Positions 15,851-18,722 of a DNA stretch of 32,000 bases are shown piece by piece (positions within the stretch are counted from its first letter, which is position 1; every line of letters begins with the position of its first letter). Origin of the DNA: Candidatus Heimdallarchaeota archaeon (GTDB lineage Archaea > Asgardarchaeota > Heimdallarchaeia > JABLTI01); the NCBI GenBank assembly GCA_030614005.1, contig JAUWKS010000005.1, positions 1-32,000 of the forward strand, given 5' to 3'. Below the pieces are notes generated by a model, which was given only the letters and a program-made list of their open reading frames with translations, was not told where the DNA came from and ran no database searches. A program made the position numbers and the translations under genes.

Positions 15851-16015
15851 GGAAATTACTTTCCCTTAATTTATTTCTTTTTATGTAATAGATAAGCTAC
15901 ATTTACCGTAAATGCATAATAGTGGGATTTAAAATATTAATATACCATTTAATTATAATAGCTAAATTCAATAGTTAACATTACCTATGATAAAAGAGGA
16001 AAAAGGTGCAATTCT

Positions 16016-16972
16016 TTGTCTCATAAAAACTTGGATGATATGTCTTCACTTAATAAAGAGCTCTTACAGAAATTATCCAAAAAGGGCTATAATACTATTG
16101 AATCACTTAGCTGGCTAAATCCAGATGAACTCGCAGAAGAAATAAAAATTGATATAGAAACTGCTCAAAAAATTATCAGTGAATCTATTTCAAATATTGA
16201 TTCTCAACAATTTTCCGCTGCTGATTTACTTTTGAAAGAGAAACAAAAGCAAAGAATTTCTACAGGATCAAATAATCTCGATGAACTTCTTGGTGGAGGA
16301 ATTTATACAGGTGAAATTACCGAAATCTCGGGAGAATTTGCTACCGGTAAAACACAAATATGCTTTCAATTATCTGTAAATGTTCAGCTCCCAACTATCC
16401 AAGGTGGTTTAGAAGGTAGCGTTTATTATATTGATACAGAGGGAACTTTTTCCTCAATAAGAGTTGCCCAGATTGCTCGTGAAAGAGGCTTCGACCCTAA
16501 AAAATTTTTAGAAAATATTGCTGTAACACGTACTTTTAACTCTGATCATTTAATGTTTTTAATTATGAATGTTGAGAAAATTATTCGTCAAAGAAATGTT
16601 AAGCTCTTAATTATCGATTCAATAGCATCTCATTTTCGAGCAGAATACATTGGTGATAATAAACTTGTAAAAAGACAACAAGTAGTTATGAGTTTAGCTG
16701 AGACATTGAAAAAACTGCTTGCTCAATTTGAGCTTGCCATAGTGGTTACAAATCAAGTAATTGCCACATTTGATGAAAATCTATTTGATAAATCACCTCA
16801 TCCCGCGTTGGGATTTGCCTGGGCTCATCGACCTCACCAACGACTTCTTCTACGAAAAGGTCGTGGTCCTGCTCGTATTGCTAGAATGTATGACTCATCT
16901 AGGTTGCCGGATAGAGAATGCATCTTCTTTTTAGCAAAACGAGGAATAGTTGATACAGAGAAATCGGTTTGA
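16016..16972 (+). CDS. RadA/Rad51-family recombinase, divergent paralogue type
   Basis: N-terminal HhH-like domain, FxxA polymerisation motif (FSAA), Walker A GEFATGKT, YIDTEGTF, Walker B LLIIDS, VVTNQV. L1/L2 DNA-binding loops diverge from canonical RadA. TTG start with SD AGGTG. Confidence 0.9.
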   Translation: MSHKNLDDMSSLNKELLQKLSKKGYNTIESLSWLNPDELAEEIKIDIETAQKIISESISNIDSQQFSAADLLLKEKQKQRISTGSNNLDELLGGGIYTGEITEISGEFATGKTQICFQLSVNVQLPTIQGGLEGSVYYIDTEGTFSSIRVAQIARERGFDPKKFLENIAVTRTFNSDHLMFLIMNVEKIIRQRNVKLLIIDSIASHFRAEYIGDNKLVKRQQVVMSLAETLKKLLAQFELAIVVTNQVIATFDENLFDKSPHPALGFAWAHRPHQRLLLRKGRGPARIARMYDSSRLPDRECIFFLAKRGIVDTEKSV

Positions 16973-16986
16973 AATATTCTTCAGTA

Positions 16987-17649
16987 TTATTTTACTTGCA
17001 AATGTTCTTTCCAAGATTTTTGAGGAATGTTTAGTATAGAGAAGATTTCGGCAGCAGAAATTTCTCCTTCTCGAGTTATTTGAGGGACTGGTTGAATAGT
17101 AAAATCAATAATTGTTGATGGTTTTCTTTTTGAGATAGATCCAGAATCAAAAATAACATCAATTTCGGATTCATTAAATGATGATATTATATCCTGAATA
17201 TTAAAAGGGGTTGGTTCACCAGTTCTATTTGCACTTGTAGAAATCAAAGGTTTTCCGAGTTGTTGAACAATCGAATTTGCAAATCGGTTGCTAGAAATTC
17301 TGAGAGCGATACTATTCACATTTACTTCATTTGGTATAATCGATTTTTTTGGTAAAGCTATTACTAAAGGTCCAGGATGAAATCTTTCACTCAACATTTT
17401 TGCAGAAGAACTTGCCTCTGCAATTGTATCGATCATCTCAAATGAATCAACAATAACCGAAAGTGGATGATTTTTTTGTCTATTCTTTATTTTAAAAATT
17501 CTTTTTACAGCTTGAACATTTAAAGCATCACACCCTAATCCATAAGCTGTTTCTGTTGGGTAAGCAATCACTCCACTATTTTCTAAAATTTCCACTGCAT
17601 TCTTAACTGCATCTGAATTTTTTCTTTTAGGATCAATTTTTATTATGAT
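16987..17649 (-). CDS. sua5: Threonylcarbamoyl-AMP synthase, short TsaC/YrdC-type Sua5
   Basis: YPTETAYGLG, KNRQKNHPL, HPGPL, STSAN motifs. The frame stays open upstream of the ORF-track GTG (17595) through IIIKIDPKRKNSDAVKNA. Start placed tentatively at ATC 17649; exact start uncertain. Confidence 0.92.
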   Translation of the reverse strand: MIIKIDPKRKNSDAVKNAVEILENSGVIAYPTETAYGLGCDALNVQAVKRIFKIKNRQKNHPLSVIVDSFEMIDTIAEASSSAKMLSERFHPGPLVIALPKKSIIPNEVNVNSIALRISSNRFANSIVQQLGKPLISTSANRTGEPTPFNIQDIISSFNESEIDVIFDSGSISKRKPSTIIDFTIQPVPQITREGEISAAEIFSILNIPQKSWKEHLQVK

Positions 17650-17681: not shown

Positions 17682-18722
17682 TTATTCCCATTCTATTTTT
17701 ACCTTATCACTGCGCCAATCTGGTTTGACTTGGGAATCGCTTACTTTTAATTCACCTGATGATTGATATGCTAAGATTCCACCCCATGCAATCATTGTTC
17801 CATTATCACTTGCAAATTGAAAAGGACAAACGGAAAGAGTGAGTTCCCAATCATCGCAAATAGCTTGAAGCATTTCCTGAAACCGTTTATTTCTAGCAAA
17901 ACCACCTACAACTAATAACTCAGTTATACGAGTATGAGCTATTGCTCTTTCCGCAATTTCTGTTAACATGGATAAAGCAGTTTCCTGTAAACTATAAGCT
18001 ACGTCTGCAACATCAACTTTATCTTCTTTTACTAAGCGAATCGCTGCAGTCAATAAACCAGAAAAGCTAACACTCATACCTTTCACACTATATGGCAATT
18101 GATGATAGGTTTTGCCTTTTGCTGCTACCTTATCAAAAAGAGGTCCTGGCCAAGGTTGTTTTGGATCATGTATGCCAACTTCTCTCGAAAATTTGTCAAA
18201 ACAGTTGCCAATTGAAATATCTAAAGTTTCACCAAAAATTGTGTAGTAATTATTTGTTAATGAAGATATTTGAGTTGTCCCGCCACTAACCATCATAATC
18301 ACTGGATTTTTTGAACCCGTAAGTACTTTGCCAATTTCAATATGACTTACAACATGATTTACACCCACTAGAGGGATATCAAGAATATTGGCTAAGGTTC
18401 TGGCTATAACAGCTCCTGTTCGTAAGCAAGGACCCATACCTGGGCCTTGAGAGAATGAAATAAGATTAAGATTTTTTGACTTTAACTTTGCTTGGTTAAG
18501 AGCTTCATTAATTAGTTTTGAAGCAATATCACTGTGATGTCTTGCAGCTTCTCTAGGGTGGATACCTTGCCCAATTGGTGGCAAATAGGATGAACGACAG
18601 TCAGCTAAAACCTTCCCCGAAGAATCTATTATCCCTACTCCAAAAGTATGTGCGGTGCTTTCAATGCCTAAACTAATTAATTTAGGAGTTTCCTTTTTGT
18701 TATTTTTTGGAGAAGAATTCAT
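17682..18722 (-). CDS. kae1: tRNA N6-adenosine threonylcarbamoyltransferase Kae1 (KEOPS), not fused to Bud32
   Basis: LGIESTAHT, HPREAARHH, GPGMGPCLR, metal-binding NHVVSHIE, SGG, GETLD, GNCFDKF, SDNG; adjacent to sua5. Confidence 0.95.
   Translation of the reverse strand: MNSSPKNNKKETPKLISLGIESTAHTFGVGIIDSSGKVLADCRSSYLPPIGQGIHPREAARHHSDIASKLINEALNQAKLKSKNLNLISFSQGPGMGPCLRTGAVIARTLANILDIPLVGVNHVVSHIEIGKVLTGSKNPVIMMVSGGTTQISSLTNNYYTIFGETLDISIGNCFDKFSREVGIHDPKQPWPGPLFDKVAAKGKTYHQLPYSVKGMSVSFSGLLTAAIRLVKEDKVDVADVAYSLQETALSMLTEIAERAIAHTRITELLVVGGFARNKRFQEMLQAICDDWELTLSVCPFQFASDNGTMIAWGGILAYQSSGELKVSDSQVKPDWRSDKVKIEWE

What the first reader, a model, noticed from the sequence alone, without database searches (positions are those of the whole stretch)
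16016..16972. RadA paralogue carrying the PALGxxW motif of eukaryotic RAD51 paralogues
At 16802-16828 the L2-adjacent motif reads PALGFAWAH, whereas canonical RadA/RAD51 has PIGG(H/N)I(L/I)AH. PALGxxW/AALGxxW is characteristic of RAD51B, RAD51C, RAD51D and XRCC3. L1 is also altered (YIGDNKLVKRQQ instead of GRGELxxRQ). Unlike archaeal RadB, it keeps the N-terminal HhH domain and the FxxA polymerisation motif. Inference: a possible archaeal relative of the eukaryotic RAD51-paralogue (mediator) lineage, or a convergent mediator.
Basis: partly seen in the sequence, partly recalled or inferred. Interest (0 to 1): 0.7.

Follow-up and report, generated by a model that had tools for sequence, protein, structure and literature searches.

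The report
Heimdall RadA paralogue resembling RAD51 paralogues
This gene encodes an extra, strongly conserved RadA-like protein of Heimdall-group Asgard archaea that is measurably closer to the eukaryotic RAD51 paralogues (RAD51B/C/D, XRCC3) than ordinary RadA is, so it may be their long-sought archaeal relative, but no tree containing those paralogues could be built here.

Summary
Window 16016-16972(+) is an intact 318-aa Rad51-family gene with PALGFAWAHRP at 16802-16834. The same genome also has a canonical RadA, a third full-size paralogue and a RadB-like gene.

- **Family:** the gene belongs to a monophyletic clade (100/100). PALGxxWxHRP is invariant in 114 distinct sequences. The motif occurs once per genome in 76 of 82 genomes of the window's class, and in only 3 of 317 genomes of other Asgard classes. 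Named hosts include Heimdallarchaeum, Hodarchaeum, Kariarchaeota and Wukongarchaeum.
- **Conserved:** all ATPase and trans-interface residues.
- **Lost:** the L1 GRG arginine, the HhH glycine hairpins and the canonical FxxA phenylalanine (Pro in the family, Gln here, with Phe one residue later).
- **Affinity to RAD51 paralogues:** against solved structures it scores 20-30% lower than canonical RadA on RadA/RAD51/DMC1, but higher on RAD51C, RAD51B and XRCC3. This holds with the motif removed. A second divergent Heimdall paralogue does not show it.

Best reading: an ATP-binding accessory or capping partner of RadA, plausibly the closest archaeal relative of the RAD51 paralogues. A tree with those paralogues could not be built, so common descent is unproven.

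The scan has flagged this family before on other genomes. A 2025 paper reports the Asgard paralogue clade without linking it to RAD51 paralogues.

The parts
16016..16972 (+). Gene for the 318-aa RadA paralogue (PALG clade), TTG start, TAA stop included
   Evidence: Pfam Rad51 8.7e-73. NF003301 326 bits, over its cut-off; TIGR02236 299.5, below its cut-off of 361.
15992..16008 (+). Purine-rich stretch (AAAAGAGGAAAAAGGTG) upstream of the TTG start; possible ribosome-binding site
   Evidence: Read directly from the sequence. Inference only.
16016..16207 (+). N-terminal four-helix domain (aa 1-64). The RadA-type fold is kept, but the HhH glycine hairpins are lost
   Evidence: AF2 helices 14-22, 28-32, 36-43 and 47-60 at pLDDT about 90. 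HHH_5 scores 24.3 bits, below its cut-off. Compare the consensus sequences.
16208..16222 (+). Linker with the degenerate polymerisation motif Q65-F66-S67-A68-A69. The canonical Phe column is residue 65
   Evidence: Column counts: position 65 is Pro in 100/114 and Gln in 9. Position 66 is I/V/F. A68 is invariant. Canonical sequences have F/W at 65.
16331..16354 (+). Walker A, GEFATGKT (aa 106-113)
   Evidence: G106, G111, K112 and Q114 are invariant in the family.
16439..16441 (+). Catalytic glutamate E142 within IDTEG
   Evidence: D140 and E142 are invariant. The catalytic role is inferred from RadA/RAD51 knowledge.
16604..16618 (+). Walker B, LLIID (aa 197-201)
   Evidence: D201 and S202 are invariant.
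16634..16681 (+). Loop L1 region, FRAEYIGDNKLVKRQQ. The GRG arginine is replaced by Asp214; R220, Q221 and Q222 are kept
   Evidence: Column 214 is R in 12/12 canonical sequences, D/E in 68/75 close relatives and K/Q in 34/39 distant relatives.
16757..16801 (+). Loop L2 (aa 248-262), VIATFDENLFDKSPH. Low-confidence loop, similar in length to the RadA loop
   Evidence: pLDDT below 50 at residues 251-255. Column counts.
16802..16834 (+). Signature PALGFAWAHRP (aa 263-273), including His271, the equivalent of the trans ATP-sensing His of RAD51
   Evidence: Invariant P263, A264, L265, G266, W269, H271, R272 and P273. DNA pattern match at these coordinates. RAD51C and RAD51D carry PALGxSW.
16886..16912 (+). 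ATP-cap region MYDSSRLPD (aa 291-299)
   Evidence: D293 and S294 are invariant. The role is inferred from RAD51 knowledge.

Best explanation
The gene encodes a member of a single-copy RadA-derived paralogue family, here called the PALG clade. The family is found in Heimdallarchaeia and Wukongarchaeum, always alongside a canonical RadA in the genomes examined.

What the protein keeps and loses:
- It keeps a complete ATP site, in cis (Walker A/B, Glu142) and in trans (His271, Asp293).
- It keeps the pocket that receives a neighbour's FxxA motif.
- It has lost three recombinase-specific features: the L1 GRG arginine, the HhH glycine hairpins of the N-domain, and the canonical Phe of its own FxxA donor motif.

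Most likely function (inferred): it is not the strand-exchange enzyme. It is an ATP-binding accessory subunit that docks on RadA through RadA's FxxA and nucleates, stabilises or caps one end of the RadA filament, as RAD51 paralogue complexes do for RAD51.

Evolution (inferred): it is probably the closest archaeal relative of the eukaryotic RAD51B/C/D/XRCC3 lineage, although this rests on similarity measures and distribution, not on a tree.

Shown: the gene, the family, its distribution, the residue pattern and the raised similarity to RAD51 paralogues. Inferred: the mediator or capping role and common descent.
For: 1. Paralogy. The genome has a canonical RadA (318 bits to Pfam Rad51), this gene (246), a third full-size copy (209) and a RadB-like gene. 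Five other genomes each carry canonical copies plus one PALG copy.

2. Family and distribution. The clade has 100/100 support with a stem of 0.55. The motif pattern occurs once per genome in 76/82 genomes of the class and 3/317 genomes elsewhere in the phylum, with controls at 0.

3. Residues. Walker A/B, E142, H271 and D293 are invariant. Column 214 is never Arg (canonical 12/12 Arg). Column 65 is Pro or Gln instead of F/W.

4. Affinity to RAD51 paralogues, single sequences in bits, ordered P0001 / canonical P0122 / control paralogue P0294:
- RAD51: 201 / 284 / 237
- Alvinella XRCC3: 122.6 / 90.3 / 62.3
- human RAD51C: 104.6 / 77.1 / 70.2
- RAD51B: 103 / below 75.5 / 70.1

5. Profiles, PALG against canonical RadA: RAD51 306 vs 388; RAD51C 188.7 vs 164.6; RAD51B 165 vs 154.

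6. Profiles with the motif and C-terminus removed: RAD51 247 vs 304; XRCC3 164 vs 146.5; RAD51C 149 vs 141.6; RAD51B 149 vs 138.6.

7. Structure-based identity, P0001 model against canonical model: Rad51 35 vs 44%; DMC1 40 vs 46%; RAD51C 31 vs 28%; Alvinella RAD51C 35 vs 31%; XRCC3 28 vs 25%; RAD51D 27 vs 22%; RadB 24 vs 29%.

8. Complex model of the RadA core with this protein. ipSAE was 0.66 against a best control of 0.11; this mark was reached by 58 of 80 solved complexes and 2 of 110 mismatched pairs. The runs agree in at least 55% of contacts and the partner's pLDDT is at least 79. RadA's FSTA linker sits on residues 137-138, 144-151 and 164-171 of this protein. Because RadA/RAD51 filaments are solved, this shows likeness to a known interface, not that this copy binds.
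Against: - No tree with RAD51B/C/D or XRCC2/3 could be built.
- In trees without them the clade sits among RadA sequences on a weak backbone (support 50-82). A position next to RadB is not rejected (p-AU 0.80), so its depth is unknown.
- Overall it is still far closer to RadA/RAD51 (200-240 bits) than to any RAD51 paralogue (91-123 bits).
- The excess similarity outside the motif is modest for profiles (+7 to +18 bits). It could come from parallel loss of the same recombinase constraints.
- R220, Q221, Q222, an L2 of normal length and the full ATPase site are compatible with a DNA-binding, filament-forming enzyme.
- P0001 itself has Phe66, which might still serve as a donor.
- Neighbouring genes (Sua5, Kae1, membrane proteins; S25e and URO-D in other genomes) give no repair context.
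- There are no expression or biochemical data.
Confidence: 0.55

Rival explanations
1. It is a lineage-specific duplicate of RadA that arose in the Heimdall/Wukong ancestor and became an accessory protein. The PALGxxW motif and the diffuse similarity to RAD51 paralogues are convergent, produced by the same shift from recombinase to mediator. On this view the eukaryotic paralogues have another origin, for example a RadB-like or an independent post-eukaryogenesis duplication.
For: - Classical phylogenies place RAD51B/C/D/XRCC2/3 with RadB in RADbeta (Lin 2006, as cited in PMC3637515).
- The clade falls inside the RadA radiation in free trees.
- Overall similarity is highest to RadA.
- The motif-independent excess over canonical RadA is only 7-18 bits with profiles.
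Against: - Three co-occurring substitutions in a 7-residue motif, plus raised identity to all four solved RAD51 paralogue types but not to RadB.
- A comparably divergent Heimdall paralogue shows the opposite trend.
- The clade is present in the lineages named (Hodarchaeum, Heimdallarchaeum, Wukongarchaeum). Published phylogenomics (Eme 2023, from knowledge) places these around the eukaryotic stem, so the eukaryotic ancestor probably had the gene.
- RAD51B/C/D and XRCC3 have an N-terminal domain, as this protein does and RadB does not (Greenhough 2026, for RadB, XRCC2 and Rad55).
Confidence: 0.3
2. It is a second working recombinase. It would form its own ATP-dependent filaments and carry out strand exchange with altered DNA-binding properties, perhaps specialised for a particular substrate or condition.
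For: - Complete ATPase and trans-interface residues, L1 R220/Q221/Q222, an L2 of normal length with conserved Asp253 and Phe257 in the close subclade, and strong conservation.
- Phe66 in this copy.
- NF003301 (RadA) is scored over its cut-off.
- Heimdall genomes carry 3-6 full-size copies, so specialisation is plausible.
Against: - The GRG arginine is replaced by an acidic residue.
- The HhH glycine hairpins are lost.
- The canonical Phe column is Pro in 100/114 members.
- The score is below the TIGR02236 cut-off.
- A canonical RadA is always present alongside it in the genomes examined.
Confidence: 0.14
3. It is a decaying or non-functional gene copy.
For: None, beyond the altered DNA-binding loops.
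Against: The reading frame is intact. There are 46 invariant positions across 39 diverse members, and the gene is single-copy in 76/82 genomes of the class.
Confidence: 0.01

Closest known systems
Archaeal RadA and eukaryotic RAD51/DMC1 (RADalpha recombinases), for example Pyrococcus furiosus RadA 1pzn, Saccharolobus RadA 2bke, human RAD51
   Same: Same length and two-domain architecture. Best sequence and fold matches: 240/233 bits and Z 33.2 to yeast Rad51. Identical Walker A/B, catalytic Glu, trans His and ATP-cap Asp.
   Different: PALGxxWxHRP instead of P-[IV]-G-G-[HN]-x-x-A-H-A. The L1 GRG Arg is lost. The HhH glycine hairpins are lost. The Phe of FxxA is replaced by Pro or Gln. It scores 20-30% lower than the genome's canonical RadA against every RADalpha structure. 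It is not the only copy in the genome.
Eukaryotic RAD51 paralogues RAD51C, XRCC3, RAD51B and RAD51D (BCDX2, CX3 and XRCC3-complex subunits; 8faz, 8gja, 9omy, 9q25)
   Same: (P)ALGxxW after L2, tool-checked for RAD51C and RAD51D. N-terminal domain plus ATPase core. Higher bit scores and higher structure-based identity than canonical RadA gives. Loss of recombinase-specific DNA-loop residues with the ATP site retained. Predicted to accept the recombinase's FxxA.
   Different: It is much less diverged from RadA than any eukaryotic paralogue. The C-terminal RLLLRKGRGxARIAR...DS block is RAD51-like. HRP follows the Trp. There is one gene per genome rather than a set of five. No partner subunit is known. 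Monophyly with them was not tested.
Asgard 'second RadA clade' of Matsuo et al. 2025 (Genome Biol Evol 17:evaf240, PMC12722695)
   Same: [quoted passage not shown] By distribution it is probably this family, or includes it.
   Different: The paper gives no motif analysis and did not include RAD51B/C/D or XRCC2/3; the terms do not occur in its text. Identity of its clade with the PALG clade was not checked sequence by sequence here.
Archaeal RadB (for example Thermococcus RadB 2cvf), currently treated as the archaeal RAD51 paralogue (Greenhough et al. 2026, PMC7618403)
   Same: A RecA-fold accessory protein proposed to cap RadA filaments. The window's genome has its own RadB-like gene.
   Different: RadB lacks the N-terminal domain and the PALG motif. 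TIGR02237 scores 116 against a cut-off of 172. Structure-based identity to RadB is lower for this protein (24%) than for canonical RadA (29%).

Membership tests
Canonical archaeal RadA recombinase | Scores over the curated equivalog cut-offs | tested here: inconclusive
   NF003301 scores 326.3 against a cut-off of 259 (met). TIGR02236 scores 299.5 against a cut-off of 361.15 (not met).
Canonical archaeal RadA recombinase | L1 with G-R-G...R-Q, and a post-L2 P-[IV]-G-G-[HN]-x-x-A-H | tested here: not met
   The sequence has G-D-N...R-Q-Q and P-A-L-G-F-A-W-A-H. Column 214 is R in 12/12 canonical sequences and 0/114 in the family. Column 265 is G in 12/12 canonical sequences and L in 114/114 family members.
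Canonical archaeal RadA recombinase | FxxA polymerisation motif in register, and HhH glycine hairpins in the N-domain | tested here: not met
   Column 65 is Gln here and Pro in 100/114 family members, against F/W in 11/12 canonical sequences. Phe66 is shifted by one residue. PGVGP and GxGE are absent from the family consensus.
Canonical archaeal RadA recombinase | Walker A/B, catalytic Glu, trans His and ATP-cap Asp | tested here: met
   G111, K112, D201, E142, H271 and D293 are invariant.
Eukaryotic RAD51 paralogues (RAD51B/C/D, XRCC3; RADbeta) | (P/A)ALGxxW after loop L2 | tested here: met
   The window has PALGFAW. RAD51C has PALGESW and RAD51D has PALGRSW, shown by tool alignment. RAD51B and XRCC3 are known only from memory.
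Eukaryotic RAD51 paralogues (RAD51B/C/D, XRCC3; RADbeta) | Closer to the paralogues than ordinary RadA is | tested here: met
   Bit scores and structure-based identities are higher than for canonical RadA and for a control paralogue. This also holds without the motif.
Eukaryotic RAD51 paralogues (RAD51B/C/D, XRCC3; RADbeta) | Monophyly with the paralogues in a phylogeny | not testable with these tools
   Paralogue sequences could not be obtained as session sequences.
Eukaryotic RAD51 paralogues (RAD51B/C/D, XRCC3; RADbeta) | Binds the recombinase and acts as mediator or cap | tested here: inconclusive
   The complex model scored 0.66 against a best control of 0.11. This may reflect likeness to solved RadA/RAD51 interfaces. 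There is no experiment.
Archaeal RadB | Core-only protein of about 220-240 aa without an N-terminal domain, scoring over the RadB model cut-off | tested here: not met
   The protein is 318 aa with a folded N-domain. TIGR02237 scores 116 against 172.4, and NF006861 scores 73.7 against 278.
KaiC-like archaeal RadA paralogues (aRadC, Sso2452 type) | KaiC-type core without the RadA N-domain | tested here: not met
   Pfam KaiC scores only 33.5 bits against Rad51 at 245. Sso2452 gives Z 18.6 and 19% identity, against Z 31-33 for Rad51 and RAD51C.

The most novel reading that the evidence does not exclude
The PALG clade is the archaeal sister, or stem lineage, of the eukaryotic RAD51 paralogues RAD51B/C/D/XRCC3 (and XRCC2 by later loss of the N-domain). 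On this reading the split between recombinase and mediator paralogue arose in the common ancestor of Heimdallarchaeia and Wukongarchaeia, before eukaryogenesis. RadB would then not be the archaeal counterpart of the eukaryotic paralogues.
Probability: 0.45. Interest if true: 0.85.

Novelty: new variant of a known kind. Interest (0 to 1): 0.72.

Why it matters
The origin of the five RAD51 paralogues is unresolved. These are cancer-predisposition genes that load and cap RAD51 filaments. The standard view ties them to RadB through an ancient RADalpha/RADbeta split, and recent structural work still uses RadB as the archaeal paralogue (PMC3637515, PMC7618403).

A full-length, single-copy paralogue confined to the Asgard lineages closest to eukaryotes would move that origin into Heimdall-group archaea. 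It carries the paralogue signature and is measurably closer to RAD51C/B/D and XRCC3.

It would add a recombination mediator to the list of eukaryotic signature proteins. It would also give a simple one-subunit model for how a recombinase turns into a filament cap.

The question is directly testable, both by phylogeny and with recombinant proteins.

Tried and rejected
**Fetching RAD51B/C/D/XRCC2/3 sequences for a tree. All routes failed.**
- A 25-aa motif query was too short for the protein search.
- Length-windowed, motif-region searches from P0094 and P0096 found 1 and 34 word-sharing candidates, none with E <= 10.
- The exhaustive representative search listed only RADalpha in its best 150. 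There were 584 hits at E <= 1e-30, and the paralogues would rank below that.
- A fungal chromosome reached through RAD51 could not be searched.
- A local test showed that a motif-only profile would give RAD51C E >= 18 at database size, with canonical RadA ranking higher, so that design was dropped.

**Other steps that led nowhere.**
- A 25-aa segment of P0001 gave no PDB hit.
- The C-terminal 83 aa alone are more RAD51-like (48 bits) than RAD51C-like (21 bits).
- The ESM Atlas look-alikes are all RadA/RAD51 clusters and add nothing on the paralogues.
- Gene neighbourhood gives no repair genes. Synteny (S25e, URO-D, flavodiiron protein) holds only within one family, and Sua5 adjacency is seen in two lineages.
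- Trees give no resolved position for the clade. Quick and careful searches differ, and a constrained PALG-next-to-RadB tree had a higher likelihood than the quick free tree.

**Rejected readings.** RadB or aRadC membership, pseudogene, and sole genomic RadA.
Full report
**The gene**

Window 16016-16972(+) is an open 318-aa frame with a TTG start. The start is supported by two things. The N-terminal peptide SHKNLDD(M/L)SSLNK is conserved in relatives that lack Met9. A purine-rich stretch lies just upstream.

Pfam gives Rad51 at 8.7e-73. NCBIfam scores the RadA model NF003301 over its cut-off (326 against 259), but TIGR02236 below its cut-off (299.5 against 361). The RadB models score far below their cut-offs.

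P263-ALGFAWAHRP-273 is encoded at 16802-16834, and L1 reads FRAEYIGDNKLVKRQQ.

**It is a paralogue**

The assembly is 3.6 Mb in 126 contigs, 90% complete and about 32% GC. It holds the following Rad51-family genes:
- A canonical RadA on contig C11: 412 aa with PIGGHIVAH and GRGTLAIRQQ, plus a roughly 95-aa Lys/Glu-rich N-terminal extension.
- This gene.
- A third full-size copy on contig C1: 456 aa with a Lys/Glu-rich C-terminal tail.
- A RadB-like gene.

**The family**

The word-indexed search returned about 113 clusters that all carry PALGxxW[AGS]HRP. Identity ranged from 100% down to 43%, before the first canonical RadA (PVGGHVLAH) appeared.

Across 39 diverse members, 46 positions are invariant. 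They include P263, A264, L265, G266, W269, H271, R272, P273, Walker A/B, E142 and D293.

A DNA pattern for PALGxxWxHRP gave the following counts:
- Exactly one hit per genome in 76 of 82 genomes of the window's GTDB class.
- Hits in only 3 of 317 genomes of other Asgard classes (families f8 and f21).
- No hits in 135 genomes of the largest other family.
- No hits for the reversed control pattern.

Record titles name Ca. Heimdallarchaeum endolithica and aukensis, Heimdallarchaeota AB_125 and B3_Heim, Ca. Hodarchaeum mangrovi, Kariarchaeota and Ca. Wukongarchaeum yapensis. LC_2 is named.

In five further genomes the PALG copy sits beside one to three canonical-type copies. Five complete or near-complete genomes of other Asgard classes have other paralogues but no PALG copy.

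At 50% identity the whole family collapses to three representatives among 1.84 billion proteins.

**Functional residues (114 distinct PALG sequences against 12 RadA/RAD51/DMC1 sequences)**

Kept: Walker A GxxxxGK[TS]Q, Walker B D201, E142, R208, R220-Q221-Q222, the trans His271, and the ATP-cap D293-S294.

Changed:
- Column 214, the GRG arginine (human RAD51 R235; Ferlez et al.). It is D/E in the close subclade and K/Q in the rest.
- Column 65, the Phe/Trp of FxxA. It is Pro in 100 of 114 sequences and Gln in this protein.
- Phe66, which is out of register and present in only 13 of 75 close relatives.
- A68, which is invariant.
- The two HhH glycine hairpins, which are absent from the family consensus although the helical N-domain folds confidently.

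So the statement that it keeps the HhH domain and the FxxA motif is only partly right.

**Affinity to RAD51 paralogues**

1. *Motif.* A 31-aa segment of family member P0094 found only RAD51C and RAD51D in the PDB, apart from one unrelated chance row (complement factor H, E 1.3). The matches were [26 protein letters not shown] in human RAD51C, a similar segment in the Alvinella protein, and KPALGRSWSF in RAD51D. E-values were weak (0.25-1.2), and no RADalpha protein appeared.

2. *Single-sequence phmmer bits.*

| Target | This protein | Genome's canonical RadA | Control Heimdall paralogue (P0294) |
|---|---|---|---|
| Pfu RadA | 240 | 348 | 253 |
| RAD51 | 201 | 284 | 237 |
| Alvinella XRCC3 | 122.6 | 90.3 | 62.3 |
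| Alvinella RAD51C | 107.2 | 77.8 | 57.0 |
| human RAD51C | 104.6 | 77.1 | 70.2 |
| RAD51B | 103 | below 75.5 | 70.1 |
| human XRCC3 | 91.4 | 75.8 | below 57 |

RadB scores 93.5 for canonical RadA and below 91.4 for this protein.

3. *Profiles, PALG against canonical RadA.*
- RAD51: 306 vs 388.
- RAD51C: 188.7 vs 164.6.
- Alvinella RAD51C: 186 vs 153.
- RAD51B: 165 vs 154.

4. *Profiles cut at residue 250, with no motif and no C-terminus.*
- RAD51: 247 vs 304.
- XRCC3: 164.4 vs 146.5.
- RAD51C: 149 vs 141.6.
- RAD51B: 149.2 vs 138.6.
- Alvinella RAD51C: 145.7 vs 128.3.

5. *Structure-based identity of AF2 models (pLDDT 90 and 88) to representative chains, this protein against canonical RadA.*
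- Rad51: 35 vs 44%.
- DMC1: 40 vs 46%.
- RAD51C: 31 vs 28%.
- Alvinella RAD51C: 35 vs 31%.
- XRCC3: 28 vs 25%.
- RAD51D: 27 vs 22%.
- RadB: 24 vs 29%.

The protein is therefore further from every recombinase, and from RadB, but nearer to every RAD51 paralogue tested. A similarly divergent paralogue shows the reverse. Part of the signal lies outside the motif, but that part is modest. It could also come from parallel relaxation of the same recombinase-specific sites.

**Trees**

With RadB-like outgroups, 65-74 sequences and LG+C20+F+G4 (PMSF), the PALG clade is monophyletic at 100/100 with a stem of about 0.55. Its attachment to the RadA/RAD51 radiation is unresolved, with backbone support of 50-82.

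A constrained tree that puts it next to RadB is not rejected (p-AU 0.80), and it beat the quick free tree by 9.9 log-likelihood units.

Eukaryotic RAD51 plus DMC1 group at 98-99 SH-aLRT in the quick trees. Their nearest neighbour is a different Heimdall paralogue type (GGNIMGHW) at 86-88 SH-aLRT. This agrees with group 12 of Ferlez et al.. So the PALG clade is not the RAD51/DMC1 sister.

The tree that matters, with RAD51B/C/D and XRCC2/3, could not be made, because every route to those sequences failed.

**Mechanism (inferred)**

A complex model of the RadA core with this protein passed its controls. ipSAE was 0.66 against a best control of 0.11; this mark was reached by 58 of 80 solved complexes and 2 of 110 mismatched pairs. 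The runs agree in at least 55% of contacts, and the partner's pLDDT is at least 79.

In the model, RadA's FSTA linker lies on residues 137-138, 144-151 and 164-171 of this protein. Since RadA/RAD51 filament interfaces are solved, this shows that the acceptor surface looks intact, not that binding occurs.

An intact acceptor with a degenerate donor motif would place the protein at one filament end. Greenhough et al. 2026 propose that RadB, Rad55 and XRCC2 cap filaments because they lack the N-terminal domain, with the XRCC3 complex capping the 5' end. By analogy this protein would be a cap at that end. The intact ATP site in cis and trans fits an ATP-dependent contact with the terminal RadA.

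**Literature**

Matsuo et al. 2025 report two Asgard RadA clades, with a paralogue clade in Heimdall, Njord, Gerd and (weakly) Loki archaea. They did not include or mention RAD51B/C/D or XRCC.

Ferlez et al. define 18 Asgard groups and likewise do not mention the paralogues.

Searches for Asgard together with RAD51 paralogues found no paper that makes the link.

Earlier models place the paralogues with RadB, and their origin is poorly resolved.

**Earlier notes of this scan**

The same family has been flagged on several other genomes. One follow-up reached the same tentative conclusion from the motif alone.

This report adds:
- The class-wide single-copy distribution.
- The motif-independent and control-checked similarity measurements.
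- The register shift of FxxA.
- The complex model.

**Verdict**

This is a real, conserved, lineage-restricted RadA paralogue. It is most likely a mediator or cap for RadA, and it is a credible but unproven candidate for the archaeal relative of the RAD51 paralogues.

Noticed in passing
L001:979-2217 (own genome, contig C11) and L003:1192-2562 (contig C1): The canonical RadA has a Lys/Glu-rich, low-complexity N-terminal extension of about 95 aa. The third paralogue (KATGGHVIAH; L1 HQLNLLAVRQKK) has a Lys/Glu-rich C-terminal tail of about 120 aa and a very long branch (2.8). Extended canonical-type copies of 360-430 aa recur in other Asgard genomes.
   Followed up: partly
L041, L045, L046 (Heimdall genomes G054 and G074); P0294: A separate Heimdall paralogue type (TNQVQSNP..FFGDPT.A[IV]GGNIMGHW) is the nearest neighbour of eukaryotic RAD51+DMC1 in the trees (86-88 SH-aLRT). 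This matches the Heimdall-only 'group 12' of Ferlez et al. No close member of this type was recognised in the window's own genome; the C1 copy is too divergent to place.
   Followed up: partly
window 16987-17595(-) and 17682-18722(-): Immediately downstream and convergent lie Sua5/TsaC and Kae1/TsaD, both enzymes of tRNA t6A synthesis. A Sua5 homologue is also next to the PALG gene in G025 (family f21), but not in family f2, where the neighbour is ribosomal protein S25e.
   Followed up: partly
Asgard genomes G054, G220, G074, G147, G038: Asgard genomes carry unusually many Rad51-family genes: up to 7 Pfam Rad51 matches and 3-6 full-size copies per genome. These include several divergent forms with altered L2 ends, for example AVGGHIVAH with a truncated L2, and GGNVVGH.
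   Followed up: no
one search match table (families f13, f26): Many RadA matches in other Asgard classes are listed with one in-frame stop (TAA, TAG or TGA) within open frames of 330-440 aa. This probably means the match runs past the true start into upstream sequence. It was not examined.
   Followed up: no
rows P0016 and P0095, rows L093, L107, L148, L161: Several family members sit in records labelled Zixibacteria, Bathyarchaeia, Thorarchaeota, Hermodarchaeota or Methanobacteriota. These are likely mis-binned or mislabelled MAG contigs rather than true occurrences outside the Heimdall/Wukong group.
   Followed up: no
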